A stretch of 64,000 nucleotides of DNA from an uncultured Bacilli bacterium. Its GTDB lineage: Bacteria; Bacillota_I; Bacilli_A; RF39; UBA660. Shown here piece after piece: positions 8,101 to 54,600 of this stretch. The position numbers and the translations under genes are program-made. The stretch lies in the NCBI GenBank assembly GCA_947581765.1, contig CANPVU010000001.1, positions 5,513 to 69,512 on the forward strand. The letters run 5' to 3'. The notes under the pieces are model-generated. The model made no database searches and had not been told where the DNA came from. It saw only the letters and a program-made list of their open reading frames with translations. Each line of letters opens with the position of its first letter. Positions within the stretch are counted from its first letter, which is position 1.

Positions 8101-8109
8101 TATTTTGAA

Positions 8110-30529: not shown

Positions 30530-30548
30530 TTTTTAGAAAGGAGTAATA

Positions 30549-31433: not shown

Positions 31434-31436
31434 TTT

Positions 31437-32528: not shown

Positions 32529-32548
32529 ATTTATAAGGAGATTAGAAA

Positions 32549-34833: not shown

Positions 34834-34851
34834 GGAGCTGCGATATAGAAT

Positions 34852-35856: not shown

Positions 35857-35867
35857 TAAGGTGTTGT

Positions 35868-36959: not shown

Positions 36960-36986
36960 TTTTTTTACTAAATATGAGGTGATAAA

Positions 36987-37970
36987 GTGAACAAATTAGT
37001 ATCAATTATAATCCCTGTTTATAATGTTGAAAAATATTTAAATAGATGTGTTGAAAGTGTTGTAAACCAAATCTATAAAAATATTGAAATTATTTTGGTA
37101 GATGATGGTTCTCCAGATTCTTGCGGGAAAATGTGTGATGAATGGGGTAAAAAAGATTTGAGGATTAAAGTTATTCATAAAAAAAATGGTGGTCTGTCTG
37201 ATGCTAGAAACTTTGGTTTAAAAATAGCAACAGGAGAATACGTGCTATTTGTAGATTCAGATGATTGGATTTCAACTTCAATGGTTAAAGATATGGTCGA
37301 AAATATGGAAAAAAATAACGTCGATATGGTAATTTGCCAATTTTATCTTGCGTATGCAAACGGTAAAAAAATATGCAAATATAACAATATAATTGAAAAT
37401 CAAATATTTGATGTTAGACAGACTATTAAATTATTGCTAGATGATAAAATAATTACAAATCATATTTGGAGAAAATTATATAAAAGAAGGTTATTATATT
37501 CTAATTGTTTTCCAATTGGAATGAATTATGAAGATATTTATGTAATGCCTAAATTAATTTTTTCTTGCAAAAAAATATATTATACTAATAATCCATATTA
37601 TTACTATTTTCAAAATCAAAATAGTATTACGAATACAGCATCTTATAAAAATTCACTTGATCATTTTAAAGCAAAAAAACATAGTTTTGAACAAATTATA
37701 GAAAAATTTCCTGAAATGAAGCAAGAAGTTAAAATTATACAAGAAAAAACAATATTACATATATGCAATAATTTGATTAAGAATGAAAACAATTACAAGT
37801 TAACTAAATTAAAATTGAACATATTTACTGAATTAAGGAAAGAAAGTAAAAATTTAAATGGCTTAGATTTAAAATTCGGGCAAATGATTTTATTTAAAAC
37901 TTTTAAGCATTCTTTTAAAATTTTTCTAATACTTTGTTGGTTAAAAAAAATATATACTAGGAAAGGATAA
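36987..37970 (+). CDS. Glycosyltransferase family 2
   Basis: VSIIIPVYNVEKYLNRCVESVVNQ...ILVDDGSPDS...VDSDD. GTG start. Confidence 0.75.
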   Translation: MNKLVSIIIPVYNVEKYLNRCVESVVNQIYKNIEIILVDDGSPDSCGKMCDEWGKKDLRIKVIHKKNGGLSDARNFGLKIATGEYVLFVDSDDWISTSMVKDMVENMEKNNVDMVICQFYLAYANGKKICKYNNIIENQIFDVRQTIKLLLDDKIITNHIWRKLYKRRLLYSNCFPIGMNYEDIYVMPKLIFSCKKIYYTNNPYYYYFQNQNSITNTASYKNSLDHFKAKKHSFEQIIEKFPEMKQEVKIIQEKTILHICNNLIKNENNYKLTKLKLNIFTELRKESKNLNGLDLKFGQMILFKTFKHSFKIFLILCWLKKIYTRKG

Positions 37971-37974
37971 TAAA

Positions 37975-39051
37975 ATGAATTTAAGCAGAAAAAAATTTTT
38001 TATCAAGAATTTTCTTAAAATGATAATAGGATATTTTTTAAATATTAAGAATTTTAAAAATTATGACGAAAATACTATATTCTTTATAGGCGTGCCAGAG
38101 TATGGAAATTTAGGTGATCAGGCAATTGCTAAAGCTGAAATAAACTTTTTAAAAAAAATTTTACCTGAAAGTGAAATTGTGGTTATTACAGAGAAAAAAA
38201 GTATGGAAAATTTACTATGCATAAAAAAAACAACTAATAAATTTCACAATATTTGTACATTCATTGGTGGTGGAAATATGGGAGATTTATATTTTTTTCA
38301 AGAAAATCTTAGATTAACTGCAATAAAATTATTAAAAAAAGGAAAAATTATTATATTTCCTCAATCTATAGATTATAATGGAACCTCAAAACGATATAAA
38401 AAAGCAAAAAAAATATATGAGTCACATGATAATTTATTTTTATTTACACGTGAAAAAAATAGTGAGAAAAAAAGGAAATTATTATTTCCAATGTGCAAAG
38501 GTGGATTAGTTCCTGACATAGTATTATCATTAGAACCTAAAATTGAAAAAATAACTAGAAATGGAATTTACTTTTGCCTTAGAAATGACATAGAAAAAAA
38601 TGATAAAAGCTTAAAAATTATAACTGAATTAGAAAATTTTTCAAAAAAATTAAATTTTGAAATTAAAAAAATAGATACTAGTTGTTCTAAATATTGTACA
38701 AAATATGAAAAACAAAATATGCAATTAACTAATTTTCTAAAAGAGTTTTCTAAAGCTAATATAATTATAACAGATCGACTACATGGAATGATATTCAGTG
38801 TTATAACAAATACACCCTGTGTGGCTTTCGATAACACTACTGGAAAAAATAAGAGTCTATATAACACATGGCTAAATAAAGAAATGGTTTGTTTTATCGA
38901 TAATATTAATGATATTGAAAAAGCTAAATATTATATAAAAAAACATCAACAAAATAATCAGTATAATAAGAATTATCTGAATGAAATTAATAAATATTAT
39001 AAAATTTTAGAAAAAAGTATATTAGATTTTTACCAAAAAAGTTTTAAATAA
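37975..39051 (+). CDS. Polysaccharide pyruvyl transferase (CsaB/WcaK family)
   Basis: GNLGDQAIAKAE... and C-terminal ITDRLHGMIFSVITNTPCVAFDN, typical of PS_pyruv_trans. Confidence 0.7.
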   Translation: MNLSRKKFFIKNFLKMIIGYFLNIKNFKNYDENTIFFIGVPEYGNLGDQAIAKAEINFLKKILPESEIVVITEKKSMENLLCIKKTTNKFHNICTFIGGGNMGDLYFFQENLRLTAIKLLKKGKIIIFPQSIDYNGTSKRYKKAKKIYESHDNLFLFTREKNSEKKRKLLFPMCKGGLVPDIVLSLEPKIEKITRNGIYFCLRNDIEKNDKSLKIITELENFSKKLNFEIKKIDTSCSKYCTKYEKQNMQLTNFLKEFSKANIIITDRLHGMIFSVITNTPCVAFDNTTGKNKSLYNTWLNKEMVCFIDNINDIEKAKYYIKKHQQNNQYNKNYLNEINKYYKILEKSILDFYQKSFK

Positions 39052-39114
39052 ATTTGATTAAAAATTCATATGCTTATTTACAATCATTTTAGATTGGAGA
39101 TGAAAATCTGAATA

Positions 39115-40623
39115 ATGCGCACAAAAAAGTCAATTACAAACATATTTTTCAACTTCAGCAATCAATTTATTACTTTAATTTTAAGCTTTTTTTCAAGAAA
39201 CATTTTTATCCATACATTAGGTGTTGAATATCTTGGAATAAATGGACTATTTAGTGATGTTTTAGGAATGTTATCACTTGCAGATTTAGGATTTAATACA
39301 GCAATGGTTTATAGCTTTTATAAGCCTATTGCTGAAAACAATCAAGAAAAGATTTCAGCTTTAATAACATTTTATCGAAAAATATATAATTTAATAGCAA
39401 TTGCTATTTCAATTATTGGTCTATGCTTAACACCTTTCATAAAATATATTGTTAATACAGATAAATCAATTTCAAACCTCGAAATTTATTATTTATTTGC
39501 ACTAACAGGTGTAGTAATATCATATTTATTTGTTTATAAAACTTCTATAATAACAGCTGATCAAAAAAATTATATTGTAACAAGAATTACAATTGTTACA
39601 AATATAATAAAAACAATAATTCAAATAATATCATTAATTATATTTAAAAATTTTATTATGTATTTATCTATAAATATATTATTTAATTTGTTAAACAATA
39701 TAATTGCTTCACATAAAGCTGTTACTATGTATCCATATATAAAAAACAAAAGAAATTTACCAAAAAGTGAGATTAAAAACATATTTATAAATTTAAAATC
39801 TGTATTTTTATATAAACTTTCTTCTTTAATGTTAAATGCTACAGACAATATTTTAATCTCTATAATTGTTGGTACTATAGCTGTTGGATATTATTCAAAT
39901 TATTTAATGATTAGTAATAAACTTTCACAAATTATTTCCTTATTTTTTACATCTGTAACTGCAAGTATAGGAAATATTATTGTAAAAGAAAAAGCATCTA
40001 AAAGATATGAAATATTTTCTGTTGAACAATCAATAAGTTTTATTATAAGTGGAATTGTTATACCATGTTTTACAATACTTATAAATGATTTAATTATACT
40101 ATGGTTAGGAAAAGATTATTCATTAGGATATGTTTTAGCAATTGTATTAGCTTTAAACTTATATCTTTCTTGTGTTTTACAACCATTATGGTCATATAGA
40201 GAAGCAACTGGTTTATACCAAAAAACAAAATGGATTATGTTTATATGTGCAATTATTAATATTGTTTTGTCAATTATATTTGGTTTACTATTTGGACTAT
40301 CCGGTATAATATTAGCATCATTCATTGCTAGAATATCAACATATGTGTGGTATGAACCTCATATTTTATTTAAAGAATATTTCGAAAGTCCTCCATATAC
40401 ATACTTTAAAGATTTAATAAAAAATTTTATTACTATAATAATCATTACTGTATTTTTATTTATTATATCTTCTAAATTTACTTCAATATCATTTACTACA
40501 CTTATAATTAAAGGTTTAATTTGTAGCACAGTATCTATTCTTATGATATTAGTAATTTATAAGAATAGTGATGGTATTAAATATTTAAAGAAGAAATTAA
40601 TAAGGAAGAAAAATAAACTTTAA
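39115..40623 (+). CDS. Wzx-type flippase (MOP superfamily)
   Basis: 502 aa, 12-14 transmembrane helices. Confidence 0.7.
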   Translation: MRTKKSITNIFFNFSNQFITLILSFFSRNIFIHTLGVEYLGINGLFSDVLGMLSLADLGFNTAMVYSFYKPIAENNQEKISALITFYRKIYNLIAIAISIIGLCLTPFIKYIVNTDKSISNLEIYYLFALTGVVISYLFVYKTSIITADQKNYIVTRITIVTNIIKTIIQIISLIIFKNFIMYLSINILFNLLNNIIASHKAVTMYPYIKNKRNLPKSEIKNIFINLKSVFLYKLSSLMLNATDNILISIIVGTIAVGYYSNYLMISNKLSQIISLFFTSVTASIGNIIVKEKASKRYEIFSVEQSISFIISGIVIPCFTILINDLIILWLGKDYSLGYVLAIVLALNLYLSCVLQPLWSYREATGLYQKTKWIMFICAIINIVLSIIFGLLFGLSGIILASFIARISTYVWYEPHILFKEYFESPPYTYFKDLIKNFITIIIITVFLFIISSKFTSISFTTLIIKGLICSTVSILMILVIYKNSDGIKYLKKKLIRKKNKL

Positions 40624-40646
40624 AAGGATATAAAATCCTTTTTTTT
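40624..40646 (+). terminator. Rho-independent terminator after the flippase gene
   Basis: AAGGAT-ATAAA-ATCCTT followed by T8. Confidence 0.55.
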
Positions 40647-40673
40647 GTTTATTATATATAACGAAAAGCGAGG

Positions 40674-41597
40674 ATGATTTATATGAGAAAGAAAAAAGAA
40701 AATAAAGAATATTTAGGATATTATATAAATGAATTTATAAATATATCCAAGATAAGGAATAAGGAGTCTACTTATTCAAATTATTTATATACTATTAATT
40801 CTAGAATGATTGTATTATATAATACTAAGATAAAAAATATAGATATTAAGTTTATAAATGAGTATACTAATTATTTATTTGATAAAGGTTTATGTAGTAA
40901 AAGTATTAAAGATACTTTAATACTTTTAAATGAAATATTAAAATTAGCAGATATACATATTAATATACCTATGCCTAAAGTAATTAAAAAAGAAATTTCA
41001 GTATTTAATGAAGATGAACAAATAGAACTTGAAAAATACCTTTTAAATAGTCCTAATAGCGTTAATTTAGGTATATACCTATCACTTTATACTGGAATTA
41101 GAATTGGTGAACTATGCGCCTTAAAATGGGAAAATATAGACCTTATTAATAATAAGATAACTATTAAAAAAACAATGTTAAGAATTAAAGATACAAACCC
41201 TAATAATAGAAACAAAACTAAAGTAATAGTAGATTCACCAAAAAGTACATCATCTATAAGAGATATTCCACTACCACCTTTTATATCATCTATGTTATCT
41301 AAAATAACTAATATATTACCAGAATACTATTTACTTACAAATAGTATATCTTATATAGAACCTAGATTATTATATAAAAAATATAAACAAATACTTAGTG
41401 AATTAAACTTATCTAAATATAACTTTCATACAATGAGACATACATTTGCTACACGTTGTATAAACCAAAACTTCCCTATTAAAATAGTCTCAGAAATATT
41501 AGGACACTCTAGTGTTAAAATAACACTAGATAGATATGTACATCCTAATTATAATGAAAAAGTAAAAATGATGAATAATTTACAAAAATTATATTAA
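40674..41597 (+). CDS. Tyrosine site-specific recombinase (phage integrase / Xer family), stand-alone
   Basis: C-terminal HTMRHTFATRCINQNFPIKIVSEILGHSSVKITLDRYVH (R...HxxR...Y catalytic box) and an N-terminal SAM-like core-binding domain. Probable start at the second ATG (40683), preceded by GAGGA. Confidence 0.8.
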   Translation: MIYMRKKKENKEYLGYYINEFINISKIRNKESTYSNYLYTINSRMIVLYNTKIKNIDIKFINEYTNYLFDKGLCSKSIKDTLILLNEILKLADIHINIPMPKVIKKEISVFNEDEQIELEKYLLNSPNSVNLGIYLSLYTGIRIGELCALKWENIDLINNKITIKKTMLRIKDTNPNNRNKTKVIVDSPKSTSSIRDIPLPPFISSMLSKITNILPEYYLLTNSISYIEPRLLYKKYKQILSELNLSKYNFHTMRHTFATRCINQNFPIKIVSEILGHSSVKITLDRYVHPNYNEKVKMMNNLQKLY

Positions 41598-41598
41598 A

Positions 41599-41621
41599 AG
41601 TGTCTAAAGACACTTTTTTGA
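41599..41621 (+). terminator. Rho-independent terminator after the recombinase gene
   Basis: AAGTGTC-TAAA-GACACTT followed by T6. A second palindrome GATGAT-ATCTC-ATCATC at 41633-41650 lies next to the convergent gene end. Confidence 0.55.
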
Positions 41622-41654: not shown

Positions 41655-42338
41655 TTACTTAGATCCCTTACGTGATAATACTACTTTAAATGTCTTAAAA
41701 AATATTTTTACATCCATTTTAAATGATACATGATTAGAATAATACTTTTCTAACTCTAATCTCTTATCAAATGTAGTATCACTTCTTCCAGATACTTGCC
41801 AGTATCCAGTAAGACCAGGTTTAGTTTTAACTATATCATTATAGTAAACACCCATATCAAATTTTTCTCTTGGTAGGTAAGGTCTATTTCCTATTAAGGA
41901 CATATCCCCTTTTAATACATTAATTAATTGTGGTAATTCATCTAAAGATGCTATTCTAAGTATTTTCCCCATCTTAGTTATTCTAGGATCATTTTCCAAC
42001 TTTTTATTTATTTTATATTCTTGTGCCAACTCTTTGTTATTTTTAAGAATTTTTTCTAACTCATCATCAGCATTTACAATCATAGTTCTAAATTTATAAA
42101 ATTTAAATAATACCCCATTTTTCCCAATTCTTTTTTGTGTAAAAAATATCGAATGAAAATCCCCAGATAGCATATACGATATCTTTACAATAATAGAAAT
42201 AGGAATTAAAAGTAAACATCCAATAAATGAAAATATAATATCAAAAATTCTCTTTGATATTAAATATAATCTTTGTTTTGAAATACTAGTTGTTTTTACA
42301 TCCATACCAACAACATCAAACTGTGATATTTCATTCAT
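41655..42338 (-). CDS. Initiating undecaprenyl-phosphate sugar-phosphate transferase (Bac_transf family, small form)
   Basis: KRIFDIIFSFIGCLLL...FYKFRTM...DELPQLINVLKGDMSLIGNRP...PGLTGYWQVSGRS, the canonical bacterial sugar transferase C-terminal domain. Confidence 0.8.
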   Translation of the reverse strand: MNEISQFDVVGMDVKTTSISKQRLYLISKRIFDIIFSFIGCLLLIPISIIVKISYMLSGDFHSIFFTQKRIGKNGVLFKFYKFRTMIVNADDELEKILKNNKELAQEYKINKKLENDPRITKMGKILRIASLDELPQLINVLKGDMSLIGNRPYLPREKFDMGVYYNDIVKTKPGLTGYWQVSGRSDTTFDKRLELEKYYSNHVSFKMDVKIFFKTFKVVLSRKGSK

Positions 42339-42487
42339 AGTCTATACCCCTTTATCTAATTTTAAAACTAGCTTAAAAGCTAATTTTTTCAAGAAAACAG
42401 TCACTATAATACTACAAATTTTATATTTTTGCAACTCTTTATGTATATTTTTATTCAAAGTGATGTATATAATGAGTAATTATAAAA

Positions 42488-44023
42488 TTACTCATTATAT
42501 ACAGATATTATTTTACTTCTTGCTTTGTCTATTTCAGCTTGAGATGGTTCCATAACATATGTCCATGTTTCAGGTATTGTATAAGTATATCCTCTTGAAT
42601 CTTTTCCATCTACACTTTGCTTAACAATTTTCCAAGCACTCATATTATTTAACTGATTTTTTACTAATTTTTGAATAACACTTTTTGGCATATCAGTTAG
42701 ATAAAATGAACTAAATGATTGTAATAATTCATCATATTTTAACAACAATGATTTGTTTTTAAACATTTTATTCATAATAGCTTCTAATACTTGTTGTTGA
42801 TTTAATACTCTATGTCTATCTCCGCCTTTATATGCATATCTTTCTCTTGCATATGCTAAGGCATGTTCACCGTCTAAGTGATTCCATCCTTTAGGAACTA
42901 CCCATCCTTTAATATGGTATGAATTAAATGTTATATCTGAGTATACATCTACTCCCCCTATTAAGTCTACTAATTTAACTACAGAAGTAAATCCTACTTT
43001 AACAGTATAATCAATTTTTATATCAAATATACTCTCTATAGTCTTTTTAGTCATATTCATTCCATACATACCACTATGTGTTAACTTATCTCTTAACCCT
43101 GTTGTACCAGGTAATTGTATATAATAATCTCTTGGTATACTAGTAAGTAATATAGTCCTTGTACTAGGATTTAATGTCATAATCATATTAACATCAGATA
43201 AAGAATTATTTACTATATTAGTAGTTCTACTATCACTACCAGATATTAATATATTTATTCCATTAGCATTACTTTTTTGTTTTACAGTATTAGAATTATT
43301 ACTAGTACTAGTTTTATTACTACTATTACTATTACTTACATCATTACTAGTATTATTACTATTACTGTTACTATTACTATTATTATTGCTTACATCATTA
43401 TTAATAATAATTTTATCTTCATATTCATAAGAATAAATAATTCTAATATTTGAAGCAGAATCACTAACTACTTCCTCTAATAAATCTAAGTAAACACTAT
43501 TAGATACAAATGAATCTATCTTATTATTTTTTAAATCCTTATATAATTGACTTACATCTTTATAACTTTTAAATTGAATATTTATTTTACTTTTAATCTC
43601 ACTTAAATAATCAGGACTAATAGTACTATTATCTATATATCCCATAGTTTTATTATTTAATGATTCAATCTTATCATAATTACTATCCTTTAATACTACT
43701 ACATTATATGCTGATTTCTCAACTTCGTAATTATTAAATCCATTATCTAAAAAATCATTAGTACTATCTACATACTTAATACCTATACCACATAATATAA
43801 TTAATATTACATATATAATACCACTAACTATTTTAGTCCATATCTTCTTAACAAATATACCTATAATACCAATTATATTTAATATAACAATACCTGCTAT
43901 TATTAAGTATAAATATTTATTAGGAATCATATCAAGATCTATTAACTCTTTTACAAGCCAACCAGAAAGAACTAATACTACAAATACTATAATTATTCTT
44001 AATATAGTCCATATCTTCTTCAT
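42488..44023 (-). CDS. LytR-CpsA-Psr (LCP) family glycopolymer-to-peptidoglycan ligase
   Basis: N-terminal transmembrane segments, Asn/Ser-rich linker, then INILISGSDSR...VNMIMTLNPSTRTILLTSIPRDYY LCP core. Confidence 0.75.
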   Translation of the reverse strand: MKKIWTILRIIIVFVVLVLSGWLVKELIDLDMIPNKYLYLIIAGIVILNIIGIIGIFVKKIWTKIVSGIIYVILIILCGIGIKYVDSTNDFLDNGFNNYEVEKSAYNVVVLKDSNYDKIESLNNKTMGYIDNSTISPDYLSEIKSKINIQFKSYKDVSQLYKDLKNNKIDSFVSNSVYLDLLEEVVSDSASNIRIIYSYEYEDKIIINNDVSNNNSNSNSNSNNTSNDVSNSNSSNKTSTSNNSNTVKQKSNANGINILISGSDSRTTNIVNNSLSDVNMIMTLNPSTRTILLTSIPRDYYIQLPGTTGLRDKLTHSGMYGMNMTKKTIESIFDIKIDYTVKVGFTSVVKLVDLIGGVDVYSDITFNSYHIKGWVVPKGWNHLDGEHALAYARERYAYKGGDRHRVLNQQQVLEAIMNKMFKNKSLLLKYDELLQSFSSFYLTDMPKSVIQKLVKNQLNNMSAWKIVKQSVDGKDSRGYTYTIPETWTYVMEPSQAEIDKARSKIISVYNE

Positions 44024-44076
44024 AATAAAATCTCCTCCTCGGACTAATTTATTATAACATACCCTAAGAAAAAATA

Positions 44077-45183
44077 CTAGAATATTTTATCTAGTATTTT
44101 ACTGTTTACAATTTTATTTTTCACATTATCTATCTTTATACTTATTTTATCTACTAATTTAGTATATCTTTTTTCTAATAAATATATTCTTAATAATTCT
44201 ATAACTGAACATACTATAAATATAAAACTAATAACAAATATAGAATAAATAATAAAATAACTTGTATTAAATATAGTATCTACTTTAAATACATTTTGCC
44301 AAATACGTACAAATTTTCTAAGCATTCTAGAATCATGTATTAAATATATACCAAATGTAGTACTAGACACTAAATTAATAAATTTATTATTTTTAATATT
44401 TATATTTTTAAATCCTAAAAACATAATAAGTGCTATTAATAGTACATCTATAGAATACATATCATAATAATAAAATATATAATCACGTAATACTGAATAC
44501 TTAGTACTAGCTACACTTAAAACTATTCCAAAAAAAGCACTAATTAATAATAATACAATAGATATACATATACACATACCACCATTTAACTTTATATCAT
44601 CTTTATACAACTTTATATATCCACCTACTCCATATAAATATATAAGCCATATTAACTGATTAACATATAAATTAACTTTAACAAAAGTAGGAATAATAAC
44701 CCATAATATAGTACATAATATTAATATTTTTTTATATGTTAATTTATCTATTTTGCTAATAAATAAATTTATATATGGTATAAATAAATAAAGTACAAAG
44801 TATGTTGTTGCAAACCACCAACATGAATGTGTAATTGGCATAACAGCATTAATAAATTCTTGCTTATTAAATTTAACAGAAGTAAATAATACTGCTAATA
44901 CATATATAGTTATAGAATAAAAGAATGCTTGTAACCATAACTTTAATAACTTAGATATCTTAATATCTTTTTTATGTATCATAAAATATCCAGTAATTAA
45001 TACAAATACATCTACTCCTACTTTTCCACCTACTCTTAAAAGATAAAGCCAAAATTCATTTAATCCCATAGCATTATAATTACATGTTATACTACTATGT
45101 ACAGATAAGTGATGTCCTATAATCATCACCATACTAATTATTCTTAGTAATTCAATATTAGATTTTCTATTCATAATAACCAT
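44077..45183 (-). CDS. Acyltransferase family 3 membrane O-acyltransferase
   Basis: NIELLRIISMVMIIGHH start and a 10-TM topology typical of acyltransferase family 3 (OatA/WecH-like). No SGNH domain. Confidence 0.7.
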   Translation of the reverse strand: MVIMNRKSNIELLRIISMVMIIGHHLSVHSSITCNYNAMGLNEFWLYLLRVGGKVGVDVFVLITGYFMIHKKDIKISKLLKLWLQAFFYSITIYVLAVLFTSVKFNKQEFINAVMPITHSCWWFATTYFVLYLFIPYINLFISKIDKLTYKKILILCTILWVIIPTFVKVNLYVNQLIWLIYLYGVGGYIKLYKDDIKLNGGMCICISIVLLLISAFFGIVLSVASTKYSVLRDYIFYYYDMYSIDVLLIALIMFLGFKNINIKNNKFINLVSSTTFGIYLIHDSRMLRKFVRIWQNVFKVDTIFNTSYFIIYSIFVISFIFIVCSVIELLRIYLLEKRYTKLVDKISIKIDNVKNKIVNSKILDKIF

Positions 45184-45198
45184 TCCCCCTATAGCAAT

Positions 45199-45981
45199 CT
45201 ACTCTAAATAACTATTACCTGTTTCATAATCAATAACTATCCCCTTTTGTACATTAAATACATATACATTAAATTTTATTCCTTCACCATTATCCTCAAC
45301 AGAATATCCTTCCATTAATACTCCACTTGCTACTAAGTTATTACCATCATATATAGGAGTAACTCTATATAGTACATGGTTTTTAGTCTCCTTTACATAT
45401 TCTGCTACTAAATCTTCAAAATATAACATACCTACATTATTCATATACCTAGTACAAGTAATTAAATTTTTTTCATTAGCATTCTCACCAGTCAATTGAT
45501 ATCCAATTAAATGACATCTATTATATAAATACTTACCCTCTACTATATCATACTTAACAGTATGCCATCCTGATGGCTTAATCATACCAATACTTTCTCT
45601 TTTAGTAGTAGGCATAATATCTATTCCAACAGAAGCAAAAGCTACTCCACATCTACCTAATGAATCTAAATTACTATATTTTTCAAATGACTTAGTAGTA
45701 ATATCACTATCAGTAAAATATGGTTCATTATTATTAATAACTACATAAGGACTACCACTATACTTTGGTATATTATCTAAAGTTATTACCTCATCTATAT
45801 TATTATTTACTTTAGTAGTTACATTAGAACTATTATTACTACCTAATACATAGTTAGCAACATTATCATTATAAATAAGTACTAAGTATACAATAAATAA
45901 AAATAAAACAATATATTCAATTGGATTTAAATTTAATCTTCTTAAAATACTTTTTTTAATTTTTCTACTACGTCTTCTCAT
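45199..45981 (-). CDS. Membrane-anchored DNA/RNA non-specific endonuclease (EndA/NucA DNA-entry nuclease family)
   Basis: KPSGWHTVKY...YLYNRCHLIGYQL...FNVYVFNVQKGIVIDYETGN is colinear with pneumococcal EndA (TPPGWHQVKN...DRGHLLGYAL...NVLVPNVQKGLQLDYRTGE). N-terminal TM anchor. Confidence 0.7.
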   Translation of the reverse strand: MRRRSRKIKKSILRRLNLNPIEYIVLFLFIVYLVLIYNDNVANYVLGSNNSSNVTTKVNNNIDEVITLDNIPKYSGSPYVVINNNEPYFTDSDITTKSFEKYSNLDSLGRCGVAFASVGIDIMPTTKRESIGMIKPSGWHTVKYDIVEGKYLYNRCHLIGYQLTGENANEKNLITCTRYMNNVGMLYFEDLVAEYVKETKNHVLYRVTPIYDGNNLVASGVLMEGYSVEDNGEGIKFNVYVFNVQKGIVIDYETGNSYLE

Positions 45982-46042
45982 ATCTTTCCTACCCTATAAC
46001 AATTATAACACATAATAAAAAAAGATAACAAGTACTGTTATC

Positions 46043-47590
46043 TTAATAAAGTGATTGTGAATACTCAATTGGTTCATATACAGTTCCTGTAAACCATACC
46101 TCACCTGAGTTTTTATCTCTAACTAAGAATAAATATGGTTTATCAAAAGTTAAATCTATACTTTCTATTGGAACTTCATATAAATAATCAAATCCACATT
46201 TAGAAGATCCTAACCCTTCAAGTGTAACTGGATCTGCTTCCTTAATTCCATCATTTGAAAAATCTACATCTACTTTGTGCTCTATACTATCTAAATAAAC
46301 CTTACTATCTATTAAATTAGATAAATTAGCCTTCTTACTATCAAAAACATCAGTTATACCTAATTTATTTAAATCTTCCTCTAAATTAATTCTAGATAAA
46401 ATATCAAATACTGGAATAGTTCCTTCTACTTTTGTAATTACTCCATCTTTAAAGCTATCTAACTCTATACCTTTAAGATTATTAATTAAATTATTTATAT
46501 CTGAAGAATTAATACCATCAATATATTTTTTCAAACTTACCTTTGTTGGCATAATACCTACATATTGTAATGTAATACCATTATACTCTTTTAAATCTTT
46601 AGCAAATACCTTTACGTTATCATCAGTATAAAACATAAAGTCAGTAGAACTAGTCACATCATCATAACCAATATTAATTTCTTGAAGATATTTATCTACA
46701 TATACTTTTGCAGGCATTTCTTTTGTAGGATCACCAGAACATGATTTTGGAGCACCCTCTTCTAACCATTTTTTATACTCATTAATTACATTTTGTCTTA
46801 TATTTTCCATACCTAAAGAATTAATAATATCATACCTATTAGCTACTGCTGATATTTTTACAGCCTTAGCCTCCATTGCATTATCATTAAACTTTAAATT
46901 AGTATAATCTTTTGCATTTAATGGTCCTATATACTCAAGAAACTTTCTATGGTGATAATTAATAAAATATGGTCTATCAGAATCTTGTATCTTATTTTCC
47001 CAATCCATATCTATAGCAAGTGTATTAAGTAAAACAAAATTCTTATCAGATATATCATCAACCATGTTATCAATTAAATTAAATGTTCTATTTCCAACCC
47101 AACTATTTATTTTATCTGATGTATTAAATGAATCATATATAACATCAGCATCATATTTATCTTTTATTGAACTAATATATTTACTCTTTATTTTATCTTT
47201 TAGGGAATCTCTAACAAATAAAGCATTTACAAAAGACATAGTCTCAGTATTTGTATATCTACCATAATCATAAGTACCTATAACATCAGTTATCTGTTTT
47301 TTACTATTACCAACAGATCCTTCCTGTAACATTTTTAGTGCATACTTAATAGCAATTGGACTATATGCCTTATTCTTCTCTTCATTTTCAAGTTTCAAAA
47401 AATATAAATCAAAATCTTGTAAACTATTACCATTTAATCTATATTTGGAACTTTCTTTATTAATCTTAATTGGGAGCAATAAACTTATCCCTAAAGCTAT
47501 AACAATAAACAATAATAATACAATTACTATTCTCATTATACTATTATATTTGTTATTATTAACAGTTTCAACATTTTGATCTTTTTCCAT
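46043..47590 (-). CDS. Serpin (serine protease inhibitor) with N-terminal membrane anchor
   Basis: C-terminal DKPYLFLVRDKNSGEVWFTGTVYEP matches the serpin signature (PFLFxIR...FxGRVxxP). Internal AIKYALKMLQEGSVGNSKKQI and NALFVRDSL resemble serpin helix A and the s3A region. One transmembrane segment near the N-terminus. Confidence 0.65.
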   Translation of the reverse strand: MEKDQNVETVNNNKYNSIMRIVIVLLLFIVIALGISLLLPIKINKESSKYRLNGNSLQDFDLYFLKLENEEKNKAYSPIAIKYALKMLQEGSVGNSKKQITDVIGTYDYGRYTNTETMSFVNALFVRDSLKDKIKSKYISSIKDKYDADVIYDSFNTSDKINSWVGNRTFNLIDNMVDDISDKNFVLLNTLAIDMDWENKIQDSDRPYFINYHHRKFLEYIGPLNAKDYTNLKFNDNAMEAKAVKISAVANRYDIINSLGMENIRQNVINEYKKWLEEGAPKSCSGDPTKEMPAKVYVDKYLQEINIGYDDVTSSTDFMFYTDDNVKVFAKDLKEYNGITLQYVGIMPTKVSLKKYIDGINSSDINNLINNLKGIELDSFKDGVITKVEGTIPVFDILSRINLEEDLNKLGITDVFDSKKANLSNLIDSKVYLDSIEHKVDVDFSNDGIKEADPVTLEGLGSSKCGFDYLYEVPIESIDLTFDKPYLFLVRDKNSGEVWFTGTVYEPIEYSQSLY

Positions 47591-47656
47591 CTAACTACTC
47601 CTCCTATGCTATCAAATTAATTATAAAATTATACAAAAAAAAAGTCAATTAAAAAG

Positions 47657-48598
47657 CTACATATTATGTAACTTTTCTACAAATTCTCTAATTATATGAT
47701 AACTATTAGAATCTACTCTATATGCATAAGCATACTCTCTTTTAGGTAACTTAAAATCAGTTTTAATTGGTATTAATTCTTTATTTTCTAATTCTTTTTT
47801 TACTAAATTAGTAACTACTAATCCTATACCTATACCTAACTTAACATATTCTTCTACTAAATAATTATGTGACAACTGATATGTTGGTAAAAATTTTAAT
47901 CCTGCTTTACTAAATTCATTCTCTAAATTCTTTCTACCAGTTCCACTACCTAATTTACATATAATAGGATAATTATTTAATTCTTTTAACGTTATATAAC
48001 TTGGATACTTATCACAAACCAAACTACTAACAACTAACTCATCTTCAACAGTAATCCATTTTTCAATTACTATATTATCATATGTTTCATTAACTTCCTG
48101 TTTAGTAAAGAATATAATATCATATTTTCCTTCTCTTAATTTTTGAAGTGCTATATCATAGTCATCTGAACTAAGATTAAATTTTATTTTAGGATACTTC
48201 TCATTAAATTTAGCAAGAACTTTTAATATATAACATTTAGTAGTAGAAAAACCTGCATTAATACAAATTTCTTTATCAAATTCATTACTCTTCTTAGCAA
48301 ATGCATTAGAAGTACCATTTAATTTTTCTATAGGTTCTTTTATTTCATTATAAAGTATCATACCATCATGTGTTAACTCTATACCTTTTGTATTCTTAGT
48401 TATAAGTTTTTTTCCAAGTGATTCTTCTAATTTTCTAATACTTTTTGTAATAGCTGGTTGACTAACACATAAAAAGTTAGCAGCTTTTGTAACATTTTTA
48501 AATTCACAAACATAATAAAAAACATTATACCAATCAAAATTTATATTCATAACATCACCGTTACAAGGTATTATATCAAAATAAAAAGAACTATACAA
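47657..48598 (-). CDS. LysR-family transcriptional regulator
   Basis: HTH region VTKAANFLCVSQPAITKSIRKLEESLGKKLITKNTKGIELTHDG, followed by a substrate-binding domain. Likely start at the internal MNINFD. Confidence 0.75.
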   Translation of the reverse strand: MYSSFYFDIIPCNGDVMNINFDWYNVFYYVCEFKNVTKAANFLCVSQPAITKSIRKLEESLGKKLITKNTKGIELTHDGMILYNEIKEPIEKLNGTSNAFAKKSNEFDKEICINAGFSTTKCYILKVLAKFNEKYPKIKFNLSSDDYDIALQKLREGKYDIIFFTKQEVNETYDNIVIEKWITVEDELVVSSLVCDKYPSYITLKELNNYPIICKLGSGTGRKNLENEFSKAGLKFLPTYQLSHNYLVEEYVKLGIGIGLVVTNLVKKELENKELIPIKTDFKLPKREYAYAYRVDSNSYHIIREFVEKLHNM

Positions 48599-48609
48599 TT
48601 TGTATAATT

Positions 48610-49470
48610 CTATTTTTTAGTACAATCATATTGTAATGCTGTTGCTGAAACACTATCAATATAATGAGCTTTTTTACCATCTTTATCTAGTCCAAAAATA
48701 AATCCATAGTTTCCACTATCTAATGCTACCTCTGTACCAGCTGCATTTGCTTTAGCATTCTTAATTTGATATTGAACATATTTAAATCCATCTTTTTTAG
48801 CTGCAGGTTTTACATTAGATGAAAACTTAGAATAATCTCCAGTTAAAGTAACAGTCATTCCACTTTGAGTCATATCCATAGTTACCTTTTTATCAGTGAA
48901 ATTAATTTTTACACTTCCATTTGTTCCTGTACATTCCCAATCACCTTTTACATTAGATGAAGATTTTCCAGATACCATTACAAATACTATAATTCCAACT
49001 ACTACAGCTACAACTATACCAATAATTAAACCTGTTTTATTATTTTTTTGATTTACAGGTTGAGCAATAGCTCCTGGCATACCATTATTATTAATAGGTG
49101 CCGCATTCATATTTATTTGATTTGCATCTGGCATAGGAACTACTTCAGGTTGTGGAACTGGTTCTGGTGTTGGTTCTGGTGTTGACTCAGGTGCTACCTC
49201 TTGTGCTGGTACTTCCTCAGGTGTAGAAACTGGTTCTGGTGCAGAAACTGGTTCTGGTGTTGTTACTTCACTTGAAGTATCCTCTTCTTTTGGTAAACTA
49301 GTATCTTCTGATACCCCTTCAGTACTTTCTGGCGCTACATTTGATACACTTGAATCAACTGTTGAATTTACATCATTATTATTATTTAAGTTTTGACTAT
49401 CACTACTTGAACTATCATAAATATTTTCTTCGTTATTCATATACACTCCTCCTACTATTAAGAGTATCAT
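48610..49470 (-). CDS. Pro/Glu/Thr/Val-rich single-pass membrane protein of unknown function
   Basis: Acidic Pro-rich N-terminal region (PEPVSAPEPVSTPEEVPAQEVAPESTPEPTPEPVP), one transmembrane segment, and a ~110-aa C-terminal domain with two Cys. Likely start at MNNEEN after AGGAGG. Confidence 0.5.
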   Translation of the reverse strand: MILLIVGGVYMNNEENIYDSSSSDSQNLNNNNDVNSTVDSSVSNVAPESTEGVSEDTSLPKEEDTSSEVTTPEPVSAPEPVSTPEEVPAQEVAPESTPEPTPEPVPQPEVVPMPDANQINMNAAPINNNGMPGAIAQPVNQKNNKTGLIIGIVVAVVVGIIVFVMVSGKSSSNVKGDWECTGTNGSVKINFTDKKVTMDMTQSGMTVTLTGDYSKFSSNVKPAAKKDGFKYVQYQIKNAKANAAGTEVALDSGNYGFIFGLDKDGKKAHYIDSVSATALQYDCTKK

Positions 49471-51684: not shown

Positions 51685-54600
51685 CTAAAATATAATAAAT
51701 GGTCTTGTTTTACTACCTGTACCACTTCTTATTTCAATATTTTTTCCTAAATAGAATACTGGTCTTATATTAAACCAAGTATCTGCTAAAAAACCTCTTG
51801 CATTCTTGTCTCCAGGATGAATGTAGTATATATAAGCAGAATATATTGTACTATCGTAATCTTTTCTTGTAATTGTCCATTCACTATAAGGTGTTGATAA
51901 ATAACTATCACAATAAATTTTTTGACAATTTTCACTACCCGAACCATCATTATAAGCATAATAATAATCACTTAGATACATTAAGCCAAACTTATCTCTT
52001 ACAATTTTTTCTTTAATCTCTTTTTTATAGACAGCCTCTCCTGTTTTATCATCACTTGTAACACTACCATAATACCACGTTGCAACATCTATTTTTAGTT
52101 TCCAATACTTATCCAAAGTGTTTGAATAAGTTTCATTTAAAACTTTATAAATATCACTTACTGGATATTTGCATCTATCACCATTTTTTCCACAACTTTC
52201 AATAGTATATCTTCTATTCCATTGATATTGACCAAAGGTTTCTGCTTTCATAAGCTTAAATTTACCTCCTTCTGTTACACCAATGATTCTAAAAAGATAT
52301 TTATCAGATTGATTTAAACACTCATCAACATCCTTAGTACCAAAACAGATATAATTTTCTACATCAATACCAGAATAACGATACATACCTGATTTAAGAG
52401 TTTTACTCAATCCTTTTGGTTCATACTCCATTAACTTCTCTGCTTTACCTGTAAAATCCTTTTTTATATAAGAAATAGTATCCTTCGAAACAGAAGAATA
52501 AACACCTTCATCATTCTTTAGATAAGCATAATAAGTATAGGTATTATAAGAATTAAAATTCAATTGTTCCGTAATTTCTTTTTTACCCTGAGTATCTTTC
52601 CAAACACATTTACTCTTATCTTCCTCTGTTACTAAACAGTATTGTGTAACATTATCATCTTTCCAAGAAAGATGATAAGAAACAGTGTTCGAGAAAGTAC
52701 TTTCCGTCTTAGGATCATCACCTAAATAGAATTCTTCTATTACTGGAGCTTTGATTTCATCATACTGAGCATAATAATCAATATCACCAGAACTCAAAGT
52801 AGCTTTCATCTTACCTAACTCGTCTGTAGAAATTTTTCCAGACTCTAGTTCTCCTTCATATTCCCAATTATTATTAAAAATATATTTCTTTTCTGTAGCA
52901 TTATTCAAATACTTATAATTAGAACCATCCTCTTTAAACGAAGTTGGAACAAAATATTGTTCATTATTAATATAAGCAATATTTATATAAGACCTACCCA
53001 TAGTTATATAATCAACAAAGATTAATCTAGAGTTTTTATAGTCTTTATAATAATGAATATAATCTTTAACTTGTTTACTTTCTTCTCCTGTACCATCTTC
53101 TTTTCTTGTTATATTATAAATATATTCTTGTCTATTTCCACCTAAAACATTCATCGTAGCATCACGAGTAGCTAAAACTGTTGGACTACCATAGATCTCA
53201 TCTTGATATGAGATATTGTTAGCATATAAAGTACCCTTTAATAAAATTGCTGCATTTTCATTAATTGTAACTGTACTAGCCATAAGATCTTCATCACTAA
53301 TTTTTAATGTCTTAGTATCAATTGTTTCTTTATTTTTGACATAGAAATTATTTGCCGTCAAAGTAGCACCTTCACCAACTTCTATACCAATTGTATTTTT
53401 ATCAACTTTAGCTTTCCCCGACACTTTATCATATTCAGATGGTTTTAATACATCAATTTTTAATGTTAAATCCTTGATAACAACACTTCCAGATGTAATA
53501 TTAAAGACTGATTTGCTATTACTTATTTCAGATGTTATTTCTGCATTTCTACCATCAATAACAACGTCTCTAGAAATATTCAAAGGTTTAGATATAGTTC
53601 CTTTCCAATCTTTAATAATAATTTCTTTATTACCAGATAAAGCCTTTTCTAGTTCATCTTCATTGCTTACAAAAACAAAGTTTGTCATAAATTTTGCTGT
53701 ATAGTTATCTGTATTTGTGTTTTTTTCATTTTTTACACCATCTGCCAATGTAAAGTTGATAATAAATGATTTTTGATGTAAGTTTTCTAATGTAGCTTTA
53801 TCAAAAGGAGTTGGAGAAAGTAAACTTTTAAATATACTTTCTAGCCCTTCTTCAACTTTTCCACTTGTTAATGGAAGACCACTAATTTGAATACTTTCAA
53901 CATTTTTTACTTCAATAAACTTTTGTAATGCAGATGCCACCTTCTTCAAATTTTCAGATAATGATTGATCTTTCTTTAGTATTGCAATTTCTAATTGTGA
54001 ACCTTCTTTTACATAAGCAGAAATATTATCACTCGTAATTTCAGAAGCAAAACTTTGAATCATTTTATTGGTATAAACAACAGGTTGATATTTTGCTTTT
54101 AAGGTAATATTAGATGTTATTGTTTCTTCATCAAAATTAAACTCTTCATCTTCACAGACATTGTTATCACATTTATACCATCCAATAAATTCGTACCCAT
54201 TATAGTCATCTGTACTAGTTTTTGAAGCATTTCCAGGATTTGCTACTTTTTCTCCATGTTTTACTTGAGCATCTCCGATTTTTATTCCTCCATCTGTATC
54301 AAATTTAACGGTATAAACTTTTGTTTCCCATTTACCAATGACCGTCGTTTCTAATTTTGAAAATTTGTAATTTGTAAGATCAATTTGTTTATCATCTTCT
54401 TGTAAAAACCATCCTTTAAAGTTATACCCCTCTTGTTCTTCTGTTGGAATTTGCTCTTTCGTTAATTGATTTAGAGCATTAGCAAGTTGCGTTTTCTTTC
54501 CTAAAACAAAATTATCATTGGCTTGATTATCAATTTGGCCTTTAAAATTAATTCTTAAAGCGTCTTCCCATTTTGCTTTTAAAGTAATCGTTTTTGAAAG

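What the first reader, a model, noticed from the sequence alone, without database searches (positions are those of the whole stretch)
45199..47590. Membrane-anchored serpin adjacent to an EndA-like DNA-entry nuclease, downstream of the glycopolymer initiation module
The 515-aa protein ends with the canonical serpin C-terminal signature and has an N-terminal TM anchor. Serpins are sporadic in Firmicutes. The adjacent gene is clearly related to the pneumococcal competence nuclease EndA. Both lie in one orientation with the LCP/acyltransferase/sugar-transferase genes. The arrangement (surface polymer ligase, O-acyltransferase, surface nuclease, surface protease inhibitor) suggests a cell-envelope protection or host-interaction module, or a possible competence link.
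Basis: partly seen in the sequence, partly recalled or inferred. Interest (0 to 1): 0.55.

Follow-up and report, generated by a model that had tools for sequence, protein, structure and literature searches.

The report
Relocated hinge-defective membrane serpin beside nuclease

Summary
The two ORFs exist exactly as described. The 515-aa protein (46043-47590, minus strand) is a serpin (Pfam 3e-37; AlphaFold model matches native-state serpins) with one N-terminal transmembrane helix. The 260-aa protein (45199-45981, minus strand) is an EndA/NucA/Spd1/Sda1-type nuclease whose catalytic His, Asn and Glu are in register. The proposed module is not supported. None of 80 related serpin loci has the nuclease within 10 kb. 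A related contig has the same LysR-nuclease-acyltransferase-LCP-sugar-transferase order without the serpin. The serpin also has its own promoter-like site and terminator-like hairpin. The more interesting result concerns the serpin. It belongs to a large uncharacterised clade, found in 259 species-level genomes of uncultured gut Bacilli. Members have a membrane anchor, roughly 100 extra residues and a reactive loop about 12 residues longer than usual. Two cysteines (one in the insertion, one at loop position P3') are gained or lost together, which suggests a disulfide. In 182 of 184 standard-length members the hinge is canonical (P12-P9 = A-[A/S/G]-A-[A/V]). Only this species has E-A-D-P, which predicts a non-inhibitory protein. 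Overall: ordinary genes in an accidental adjacency, with a modestly novel serpin variant.

The parts
46043..47590 (-). Serpin CDS, 515 aa. Predicted type II membrane-anchored extracellular serpin, a divergent member of a large clade in gut Bacilli.
   Evidence: Pfam PF00079 at 3.3e-37. PDB serpin matches. AlphaFold2 model pLDDT 86. Foldseek best hits are native-state serpins. More than 120 homologues at 50-59% identity.
47468..47536 (-). N-terminal transmembrane anchor, residues about 19-41.
   Evidence: Kyte-Doolittle 19-residue maximum of 3.43 at residue 21. Modelled as helix 15-38. 120 of 121 family proteins have such a segment N-terminal of the serpin core.
46646..46918 (-). Clade-specific insertion, residues about 225-315, containing Cys284 (codon 46739-46741). 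It is modelled as extra strands plus helices 261-277 and 294-305. Boundaries are approximate.
   Evidence: The family profile needs about 100 more positions than conserpin between profile positions 227 and 400. Secondary structure from DSSP on the model. No Pfam match.
46169..46255 (-). Reactive-centre loop, residues 446-474 (P17 to about P12'). The hinge G448-V455 reads G-I-K-E-A-D-P-V (46226-46249). The hinge-counted P1 is Ser462. Cys465, at P3', is codon 46196-46198. The conserved primed-side motif is CGFDYLYEVP.
   Evidence: HMM alignment places the family motif neGikaaaat on EEGTEAAAAT of conserpin. Position statistics. DNA read directly. Residues 451-464 have pLDDT below 50.
47620..47648 (-). 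Promoter-like site for the serpin (TTGACT, 17-nt spacer, TATAAT; 11 of 12 matches), between the LysR stop and the serpin start.
   Evidence: This is a consensus match only; such matches are no more frequent here than in shuffled sequence.
46015..46044 (-). Terminator-like hairpin (9-bp stem, 5-nt loop) followed by seven U residues, starting at the serpin stop codon.
   Evidence: Free energy -7.8 kcal/mol, z-score -2.6 against shuffles. Sequence. The built-in scan missed it because the stem has fewer than 3 G-C pairs.
46002..46031 (-). Promoter-like site for the nuclease, with an extended -10 element (TGTTATAAT).
   Evidence: The -10 element and leader (TATAATTGTTATAG) are conserved upstream of the nuclease in L084, which has no serpin.
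46011..47660 (-). The 1.65-kb serpin cassette (promoter, CDS, terminator). It is present here and in strains of the same species, and absent from the otherwise collinear contig L084.
   Evidence: blastn: L084 2546-3939 aligns to window 49047-47661, and L084 4002-9326 aligns to window 46010-40619. No flanking repeats or mobile-element genes.
45199..45981 (-). Nuclease CDS, 260 aa. EndA/NucA/Spd1/Sda1-type beta-beta-alpha-metal nuclease with an N-terminal anchor (residues about 18-40, nt 45862-45930).
   Evidence: PF13930 at 1.2e-22. PDB hits. Hydropathy. All 8000 scored candidates reached E <= 0.001, some named DNA-entry nuclease by their source.
45412..45522 (-). Nuclease active-site block, residues 154-190: N-R-C-H157-L-I-G-Y ... 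K-N172-L ... Y-F-E189-D.
   Evidence: His157 aligns with the His of NRGHLVGY in Spd1, and with the positions occupied by Gly in the Sda1 chain and Ala in the NucA chain. NRCHLIG occurs in 116 of 120 close homologues.
47657..48598 (-). LysR-family regulator upstream of the serpin. In L084 the same gene lies directly upstream of the nuclease.
   Evidence: Pfam HTH_1 plus LysR_substrate. Gene order in L084.
41655..45183 (-). Acyl_transf_3 (44077-45183), LCP/CpsA-like (42488-44023) and Bac_transf priming sugar-phosphate transferase (41655-42338). This is the edge of the glycopolymer region.
   Evidence: The order is conserved with the nuclease in L084. Bac_transf follows the nuclease in L085-L087, but not in L088-L090.

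Best explanation
These are two independent single-gene units that both encode surface-anchored proteins. They became neighbours when a 1.65-kb serpin cassette came to lie between a LysR gene and a nuclease gene in this species' lineage.

The nuclease is an ordinary, catalytically intact EndA-family membrane nuclease. It probably degrades extracellular DNA or RNA at the cell surface for nucleotide scavenging, and possibly for DNA uptake (inferred).

The serpin belongs to a large clade in uncultured gut Bacilli. Members are held on the outer face of the membrane by one N-terminal helix. They carry an insertion of roughly 100 residues near the top of the molecule. Their reactive loop is lengthened on the primed side and is probably stapled to the insertion by a Cys284-Cys465 disulfide (inferred from covariation). 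Typical members have a canonical inhibitory hinge and small P1 residues. They are best read as suicide inhibitors that protect the cell surface from elastase- or subtilisin-like gut proteases (inferred).

The copy in this window has Glu at P12, Asp at P10 and Pro at P9, plus Ser80 to Ala in the conserved S-P-x-S-I motif. Rapid loop insertion should therefore fail. The protein is most likely a protease substrate or a non-inhibitory serpin: either a decaying copy or one with a changed, non-inhibitory role.
For: Gene identities.

No module:
- The nuclease is within 10 kb of the serpin in 0 of 80 loci. The largest neighbour cluster covers only 9 of 80 loci. No other window gene recurs near the serpins.
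- L084 is collinear with the window but lacks the serpin.
- The serpin has its own promoter-like site and terminator-like hairpin. The nuclease promoter-like element is conserved in L084.

Clade: 259 species-level genomes. 120 of 121 proteins have an N-terminal transmembrane segment.

Hinge:
- P12 is Ala in 182 of 184, P10 is Ala in 172 of 184, and P9 is Ala or Val in 171 of 184. E-A-D-P occurs only in the window and in P0001.
- P0001 is 99% identical and was found on 5 contigs, from at least 3 samples.
- The changes are point substitutions, not a frameshift.
- The published rule is P17-P9 = ExGTEAAAA (PMC8233489) with P12-P9 drawn from [AGS]. Charged residues at P14 or Pro at P12/P10 abolish inhibition (PMC2689274). 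Antithrombin P12 Ala to Thr loses activity (PMC3268027).

Divergence: the window copy departs at 10 of 128 highly conserved columns, against a median of 2.

Cysteines: 179 sequences have both, 17 have neither and 2 have one. There are at least 6 concerted changes on a neighbour-joining tree.
Against: - No biochemistry exists for any member of this clade, so inhibitory activity is unproven even for the canonical members.
- The published hinge rules name Pro at P12 or P10 and a charge at P14. They do not name exactly Glu at P12, Asp at P10 or Pro at P9, so loss of inhibition is an extrapolation.
- The ORF is intact and nearly identical in several samples, and it keeps the Cys pair and most core motifs. 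That argues against simple decay.
- pN/pS between strains rests on 5-6 differences and is uninformative.
- The direction of the indel is inferred by parsimony. A deletion in L084 remains possible.
- The disulfide rests on covariation only.
Confidence: 0.7

Rival explanations
1. The serpin, nuclease, O-acyltransferase, LCP ligase and sugar transferase form one co-regulated envelope-protection or host-interaction module, possibly under the upstream LysR regulator.
For: All six genes are on the same strand with short gaps of 15-149 bp. All the products act at the cell surface. The nuclease-to-Bac_transf order recurs in related contigs L084-L087.
Against: The serpin is never near the nuclease or any of these genes in 80 other genomes. 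L084 has the same cluster without the serpin. A terminator-like hairpin and a separate promoter-like site lie between the serpin and the nuclease. In more distant relatives the nuclease lies in unrelated contexts, so the recurrence in close relatives is best explained by shared descent.
Confidence: 0.08
2. The window serpin is still a working inhibitor. The clade's unusual architecture (stapled, lengthened loop, Ile at P14) tolerates Glu at P12, Asp at P10 and Pro at P9, or it uses a non-canonical tight-binding mechanism without full loop insertion.
For: The ORF is intact and 99% conserved across samples. The Cys pair, the primed-side motif and most core residues are retained. The clade already departs from the textbook hinge at P17 (Asn) and P14 (Ile).
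Against: 182 of 184 clade members keep Ala at P12 and 172 of 184 keep Ala at P10, which shows strong selection for the canonical hinge within this same architecture. Published rules link non-small residues at P12-P9 to loss of inhibition (PMC2689274, PMC3268027, PMC8233489). A further substitution, Ser80 to Ala, falls in the conserved S-P-x-S-I motif.
Confidence: 0.2
3. Competence link: the nuclease is a true EndA orthologue that processes incoming DNA during natural transformation, and the serpin protects the uptake machinery.
For: The nuclease is in the same family as EndA (3owv) and NucA (4qgo), has the same membrane anchoring, and some homologues are named DNA-entry nuclease by their source.
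Against: No ComEA, ComEC, ComF or pilin genes were found among the window ORFs that were scanned (ORFs between 30.5 and 40.6 kb were not scanned). The family also includes purely secreted DNases (Sda1, Spd1) and phage-borne members (phrog_36807). The best PDB matches are Sda1 and Spd1, not EndA. The serpin adjacency is accidental.
Confidence: 0.1
4. The serpin position in the window is ancestral, and the L084 lineage deleted the cassette. On this reading the serpin was not inserted here.
For: The indel is clean and has no mobile-element hallmarks. The more distant outgroups L085-L087 also lack LysR at this junction, so they cannot polarise the event.
Against: None of 80 other serpin loci shares any neighbour with the window. 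The nearest serpin relative is only 59% identical, whereas the nuclease has relatives at 79% and 70%. This fits a relocated or acquired, fast-evolving copy.
Confidence: 0.2

Closest known systems
Characterised bacterial inhibitory serpins: tengpin (PDB 2pee), miropin (5ncs), siropins of Eubacterium siraeum (PMC5127057) and the Bifidobacterium longum serpin (recalled from memory)
   Same: The serpin fold in the native five-stranded state (Foldseek TM-score 0.71-0.73 normalised to the target). An exposed reactive loop. At clade level, a canonical Ala-rich hinge. An extracellular location in a gut bacterium, pointing to protection against host or microbial serine proteases.
   Different: Only about 17% identity to any solved serpin. 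The protein is anchored by an uncleaved N-terminal transmembrane helix. It has roughly 100 extra residues, a reactive loop about 12 residues longer on the primed side, and a covarying Cys pair linking P3' to the insertion. The clade has Asn at P17 and Ile at P14. The window copy has E-A-D-P at P12-P9.
Non-inhibitory serpins and natural hinge mutants: ovalbumin, PEDF, maspin; antithrombin P12 Ala to Thr (PMC3268027); C1-inhibitor Ma P12 Ala to Glu (recalled from memory)
   Same: The serpin fold is intact, but the hinge carries bulky, charged or Pro residues that hinder insertion of the loop into sheet A. P12 Glu is the same substitution I recall for C1-inhibitor Ma.
   Different: Here the change is a fixed, species-level state within an otherwise canonical bacterial clade, combined with relocation of the gene. 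Any non-inhibitory function is unknown.
EndA (S. pneumoniae, 3owv), NucA (S. agalactiae, 4qgo), Spd1 (2xgr) and Sda1 (5fgw) beta-beta-alpha-metal nucleases, Pfam PF13930
   Same: The domain itself, a catalytic His in the R-x-H-L-[IVL]-G-Y block, and the Asn and Glu aligned with the N-L and Y-Y-E motifs of Spd1 and NucA. The N-terminal membrane anchor resembles that of EndA.
   Different: The motif has Cys where the streptococcal enzymes have Gly (NRCH against NRGH/DRGH); this is the subfamily norm. There is no evidence of a competence regulon. The family is very widespread: all 8000 scored candidates reached E <= 0.001.

Membership tests
Serpin superfamily (PF00079) | Significant match to the family profile across the domain | tested here: met
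   E = 3.3e-37, 129 bits against a cut-off of 27, in two stretches split by the insertion. The family profile matches PDB serpins down to E = 1.6e-30.
Serpin superfamily (PF00079) | Serpin fold with an exposed reactive-centre loop (native state) | tested here: met
   AlphaFold2 pLDDT 86, with the loop at residues 451-464 disordered. The top Foldseek hits are native tengpin, neuroserpin, conserpin and alpha-1-antitrypsin, at E about 1e-24.
Inhibitory serpins | Hinge consensus: P15 Gly, P14 Thr/Ser, P12-P9 small residues (Ala/Gly/Ser) (PMC8233489, PMC2689274) | tested here: not met
   The window has G-I-K-E-A-D-P-V, so P12 is Glu, P10 is Asp and P9 is Pro. The clade as a whole does meet the P15 and P12-P9 criteria, with Ile at P14 in 184 of 184.
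Inhibitory serpins | About 17 residues from P17 to P1, with a plausible P1 | tested here: inconclusive
   Counting from the hinge gives P1 = Ser462; in the clade P1 is Ala, Gly, Ser, Asp or Asn. The most variable position is P3 (A/K/L/F/R/M/Y), so the true scissile bond is uncertain.
Inhibitory serpins | Formation of a covalent SDS-stable complex with a target protease | not testable with these tools
   This needs biochemistry.
Serpin superfamily (PF00079) | C-terminal signature ...[DNQ]-[RKHQS]-[PST]-F-[LIVMFY]... (PROSITE pattern, recalled from memory) | tested here: inconclusive
   The window reads F-D-K-P-Y-L-F-L-V, with Tyr in place of the signature Phe. Tyr is the norm for the clade.
EndA/Spd1-type nucleases (PF13930) | Profile match above the curated cut-off | tested here: met
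   E = 1.2e-22, 81 bits against a cut-off of 27. PDB hits are EndA, NucA, Spd1 and Sda1.
EndA/Spd1-type nucleases (PF13930) | Catalytic His and the metal-site Asn and Glu in register | tested here: met
   His157 aligns with the His of NRGHLVGY in Spd1, and with the Gly and Ala that occupy this position in the Sda1 and NucA chains. I take those to be active-site mutations, from memory. Asn172 and Glu189 align with the RNL and YYE motifs of Spd1.
Competence DNA-entry nuclease (EndA in the functional sense) | Association with a competence regulon or DNA-uptake genes (ComEA, ComEC, ComG) | tested here: inconclusive
   No such domains were found among the window ORFs scanned (ORFs between 30.5 and 40.6 kb were not scanned) or in the contexts of six nuclease homologues (L089 has one weak N_methyl hit). 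The rest of the genome is not available.
Operon or functional module (serpin plus nuclease plus glycopolymer genes) | Gene neighbourhood conserved across genomes | tested here: not met
   0 of 80 serpin loci have the nuclease, LCP or Bac_transf within 10 kb. L084 has the cluster without the serpin.
Operon or functional module (serpin plus nuclease plus glycopolymer genes) | Co-transcription, meaning no terminator or promoter between the genes | tested here: not met
   A terminator-like hairpin with a U7 tail starts at the serpin stop. An extended -10 promoter-like site before the nuclease is conserved in L084. This is prediction only; there are no transcript data.
Anti-phage defence system or phage cargo | Match to PADLOC or PHROG families | tested here: not met
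   PADLOC gives no hit for the serpin, nuclease, LysR or acyltransferase. In PHROGs the nuclease family has phage members (phrog_36807, 4e-43) but the serpin has none. The nuclease here sits in conserved chromosomal synteny.

The most novel reading that the evidence does not exclude
The clade is a distinct, undescribed structural class of serpin. It is a type II membrane-tethered inhibitor whose reactive loop is stapled at P3' by a disulfide to a clade-specific insertion of roughly 100 residues. It is conserved across hundreds of species of uncultured gut Bacilli as a cell-surface shield against gut proteases. The copy in this window would then be a natural hinge-dead derivative that was relocated and repurposed for a non-inhibitory role, such as a protease decoy or a binding protein, rather than a decaying gene.
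Probability: 0.3. Interest if true: 0.55.

Novelty: new variant of a known kind. Interest (0 to 1): 0.35.

Why it matters
The proposed envelope or competence module would have been a new functional association, but the evidence says it is an accident of gene order. What remains useful has four parts.

- Hundreds of uncultured gut Bacilli species encode a membrane-tethered serpin. Its architecture is not represented among solved structures (about 17% identity to the nearest) and has no NCBIfam model. This is relevant to how wall-poor commensals survive pancreatic and neutrophil proteases, and to the gut serpin catalogue discussed for inflammatory bowel disease (PMC8201313).
- The covarying Cys pair gives a concrete, testable structural hypothesis: a stapled reactive loop.
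- This species offers a natural experiment, a hinge-mutated copy inside an otherwise canonical clade.
- For annotation, a protein labelled 'serpin family protein' here should not be assumed to be an inhibitor.

Tried and rejected
- Conserved partners of the serpin: I clustered all ORFs within 6 kb of the serpin in 80 loci. The largest cluster (ThrRS-like) covers only 9 loci, so there is no conserved partner.
- Window genes near other serpins: I searched all window ORFs of at least 120 aa against the 80 loci. Only sporadic single hits appeared.
- Insertion scars: I looked for flanking direct or inverted repeats and mobile-element genes around the 1.65-kb cassette. Only AT-rich chance matches turned up.
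- Frameshift in the hinge: rejected. The reading frame and the length from Gly448 to Cys465 are the same as in the family, and the changes are single-base substitutions.
- Sequencing error: rejected. The same hinge occurs on 5 contigs from at least 3 samples.
- Strain-level pN/pS: the serpin has 3 non-synonymous and 2-3 synonymous differences. There are too few to say anything.
- Second serpin copy in the window: none found.
- The insertion as a known domain: no Pfam match.
- Defence system: no PADLOC hits.
- Cys-Cys distance in the model: not possible, because model coordinates are not exposed.
- Literature on membrane-anchored or loop-stapled bacterial serpins: two searches found nothing on this clade, and PMC8201313 has no relevant mention.
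Full report

Yes. Two adjacent ORFs occupy the stated coordinates on the minus strand: 46043-47590 (515 aa) and 45199-45981 (260 aa). The window has about 24% G+C throughout.

The 515-aa protein is a serpin.
- It matches Pfam Serpin at E = 3.3e-37 and 134 PDB serpin sequences at E <= 1e-3.
- An AlphaFold2 model built on 57 homologues has mean pLDDT 86 and pTM 0.81.
- The best Foldseek matches of the model are native-state serpins: tengpin 2pee, neuroserpin 3f5n, conserpin 5cdx and alpha-1-antitrypsin 1hp7. E-values are about 1e-24 and TM-scores 0.7-0.8 normalised to the target.
- A single very hydrophobic stretch near residues 21-39 (Kyte-Doolittle 3.4) is modelled as helix 15-38. No second membrane segment is present.

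The 260-aa protein is an EndA-type nuclease.
- It matches PF13930 (Endonuclea_NS_2) at 1.2e-22.
- Its only PDB relatives are Sda1, Spd1, NucA (4qgo) and EndA (3owv).
- It also has one N-terminal hydrophobic segment.

**2. The nuclease is intact and ordinary**

- His157 in N-R-C-H-L-I-G-Y aligns with the His of NRGHLVGY in Spd1. It also aligns with the positions occupied by Gly in the Sda1 chain and Ala in the NucA chain; I take these to be engineered active-site mutations (from memory).
- Asn172 (K-N-L) and Glu189 (Y-F-E-D) align with the RNL and YYE motifs of Spd1.
- The family is very widespread. All 8000 scored candidates reached E <= 0.001, many are 60-80% identical, and several are named 'DNA-entry nuclease' by their source. 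Phages carry members too (phrog_36807).
- No PADLOC defence model matches.

**3. The serpin belongs to a large, uncharacterised clade**

- More than 120 clusters at 50-59% identity and 503-637 aa were returned. The only name any source gives is 'serpin family protein [Bacilli bacterium]'.
- A scan of one genome per species found 259 genomes encoding a relative. Almost all are uncultured gut or faecal Bacilli, for example Clostridium sp. CAG:451, CAG:710 and CAG:762, Mycoplasma sp. CAG:956, and Candidatus Onthousia and Onthocola, which NCBI places in Bacilli incertae sedis.
- 120 of 121 proteins have a transmembrane-grade segment N-terminal of the serpin core. It follows a cytoplasmic tail of very variable length.
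- Against solved serpins, the clade profile needs about 100 extra positions between the s3A/s4C region and the s6A/hI region. In the model these form extra strands and two helices, 261-277 and 294-305. They match no Pfam family.
- No NCBIfam model covers the protein.

**4. The reactive-centre loop**

The HMM alignments place the clade motif N-[ED]-G-I-K-A-A-A-A-T on E-E-G-T-E-A-A-A-A-T of conserpin. Gly448 is therefore P15.

Across the 184 members of standard length:

| Position | Residues |
|---|---|
| P15 | Gly in 184 |
| P14 | Ile in 184 |
| P12 | Ala in 182 |
| P11 | Ala, Ser or Gly |
| P10 | Ala in 172 |
| P9 | Ala or Val in 171 |
| P8 | Thr in 163 |
| P5 to P2 | Gly-Gly-x-Gly |
| P1 | Ala, Gly, Ser, Asp or Asn |
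| P3' | Cys in 165 |
| after P3' | conserved G-F-D-Y-x-Y-[DE]-V-P |

- Apart from Asn at P17 and Ile at P14, this fits the published inhibitory hinge. That hinge is P17-P9 = ExGTEAAAA (PMC8233489), with P12-P9 drawn from [AGS] (PMC2689274).
- By my count against alpha-1-antitrypsin (sequence recalled from memory), the distance from P15 to the P-[FY] motif of strand s1C is 37 residues rather than 25. The HMM alignment to conserpin shows a 13-residue gap at the same place. The extra length lies on the primed side.
- That primed-side part is modelled with high confidence from about residue 465 onward. Residues 451-464 are disordered.

**5. A probable disulfide staple**

- Most members have exactly two cysteines. 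These correspond to Cys284, in the insertion loop between the two extra helices, and Cys465, at P3'.
- 179 sequences have both, 17 have neither, and 2 have only one.
- On a neighbour-joining tree the both/neither state changes at least 6 times.
- This repeated concerted gain or loss is what a disulfide predicts. It remains an inference because I could not read model coordinates.

**6. This copy is the odd one out**

- The window hinge reads G-I-K-E-A-D-P-V, giving Glu at P12, Asp at P10 and Pro at P9. Among about 200 sequences only the window and P0001 have this.
- P0001 is 99% identical and was found on five contigs, from at least three samples. The hinge is therefore not an assembly error.
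- The DNA shows in-frame single-base substitutions: gaa, gat and cca where relatives have Ala codons.
- The window protein also departs from the clade at 10 of 128 highly conserved columns, against a median of 2 and a 95th percentile of 7. One of these is Ser80 to Ala in the S-P-x-S-I motif. I recall this as the shutter Ser56 of alpha-1-antitrypsin.
- It sits on a long branch, at the 90th percentile of root-to-tip distance.
- Published rules link small residues at P12-P9 to inhibition. They link a charge at P14, Pro at P12 or P10, and P12 Ala to Thr to its loss (PMC2689274, PMC3268027). From memory, P12 Ala to Glu is the C1-inhibitor Ma substrate variant.
- I conclude, at roughly 65-70% confidence, that this protein cannot insert its loop fast enough to trap a protease.

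**7. The adjacency is accidental**

- I searched ten window proteins against 80 serpin loci, each with up to 10 kb of flank. The nuclease, LCP, Bac_transf and HisRS were never present.
- Clustering all flanking ORFs gave no partner in more than 9 of 80 loci.
- No other window ORF recurs near serpins.
- The decisive comparison is contig L084, which carries the closest nuclease homologue from another species (79% identity). Its gene order is HisRS, small membrane protein, LysR, nuclease, Acyl_transf_3, LCP, Bac_transf, integrase. That is the window order without the serpin.
- blastn aligns L084 to window 49047-47661 and to 46010-40619. Exactly 46011-47660 is left as a 1.65-kb indel.
- That segment carries a promoter-like TTGACT-17-TATAAT site (47648-47620), the CDS, and a 9-bp hairpin with a U7 tail starting at the stop codon (free energy -7.8 kcal/mol, z-score -2.6).
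- Directly after the hairpin lies an extended -10 promoter-like site (TGTTATAAT). It is conserved upstream of the nuclease in L084.
- No flanking repeats or mobile-element genes were found.
- Slightly more distant relatives (L085-L087) show HisRS, then the nuclease, then Bac_transf and a teichoic-acid-like locus.
- More distant ones (L088-L090) place the nuclease beside an HtrA-like protease and pilus genes, beside a RelA/SpoT-domain protein and a polysaccharide deacetylase, or among unrelated genes. The nuclease-glycopolymer adjacency is therefore local synteny by descent.

**8. Competence**

None of the window ORFs I scanned carries a DNA-uptake domain. ORFs between 30.5 and 40.6 kb were not scanned. 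The rest of the genome is unavailable, so a competence role for the nuclease cannot be excluded. Nothing here supports it.

**9. Mechanism**

Shown:
- Both family assignments and both single N-terminal hydrophobic segments.
- The nuclease catalytic residues in register.
- The canonical clade hinge and the aberrant window hinge.
- The cysteine covariation.
- The lack of conserved synteny, and the indel relative to L084.

Inferred:
- Type II membrane topology.
- The disulfide.
- Protection against elastase- or subtilisin-like proteases for the clade, based on small P1 residues and a gut habitat.
- Loss of inhibition in the window copy.
- Nucleotide scavenging as the main role of the nuclease. 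One serpin-bearing relative has a 1.31-Mb chromosome, which is typical of nutritionally dependent Bacilli.
- Insertion, rather than deletion, as the direction of the indel.

**10. Novelty and score**

The nuclease is a routine member of a known family. The serpin is a new structural variant of a known superfamily, and this copy is a natural hinge variant. The proposed module, the core of the finding, is not supported. Interest is 0.35.

Noticed in passing
window 29600-41600; junction near 40621; tyrosine recombinase gene 40674-41597 (+): A strain of the same species (L081, 99.3% identical) matches the window from 56998 down to 40621. Homology stops just past the integrase-type gene. Beyond that point the polysaccharide genes differ: L081 has Fer4/FrhB, a different flippase and a pyruvyl transferase. 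This points to a strain-variable glycopolymer locus with a recombinase gene at the junction. L084 has the same integrase position.
   Followed up: partly
window 6902-8093 vs 28339-29530, and 8107-9212 vs 24799-25903: There are two near-identical inverted repeats, 1.2 kb at 99.2% and 1.1 kb at 98.9%. They duplicate a GT4/DUF1972 glycosyltransferase and a radical SAM/SPASM gene in two glycopolymer loci. Recombination between them could invert about 15-20 kb.
   Followed up: partly
window 1-45200: About 45 kb is devoted to surface glycopolymer synthesis. It includes three Polysacc_synt flippases, three Glyphos_transf (teichoic-acid-type) enzymes, three LicD proteins, a choline kinase/nucleotidyltransferase fusion (16107-17702), IspD-like and Wzy_C proteins, and a sulfatase-family protein. 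The content suggests phosphocholine-decorated teichoic-acid-like polymers in a small-genome gut bacillus.
   Followed up: partly
window 58479-59291 (-) and 59361-60950 (-): The 270-aa ORF contains only the C-terminal part of a penicillin-binding transpeptidase domain (profile positions 120-298) plus a PASTA domain. It lies directly downstream of a large serine recombinase (Resolvase plus Recombinase domains). The PBP gene may be split by an integrated element.
   Followed up: no
window 51685-55440, 55460-56839 and 61269-63875 (all -): These are large surface proteins with Flg_new/InlB-type B repeats and Big_2 domains. The 868-aa protein has internal DNA repeats at 77-83% identity (62460-63700). 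Between strains these genes are the most diverged in the region, with the highest pN values (0.0056 and 0.0074).
   Followed up: no
L088 5831-7729: In one more distant relative the nuclease homologue lies directly after an HtrA-type Trypsin-PDZ protease and before a signal peptidase, SpaA pilin and sortase cluster. This is a different surface-protein context from the window.
   Followed up: no
window 48610-49470 (-): A 286-aa protein with an acidic, Pro/Glu/Thr/Val-rich low-complexity N-terminal half, a single central transmembrane segment (about residues 148-166) and a small C-terminal domain. It has no meaningful Pfam match. It shows a 3-base indel between strains and is shorter (228 aa) in L084.
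   Followed up: no
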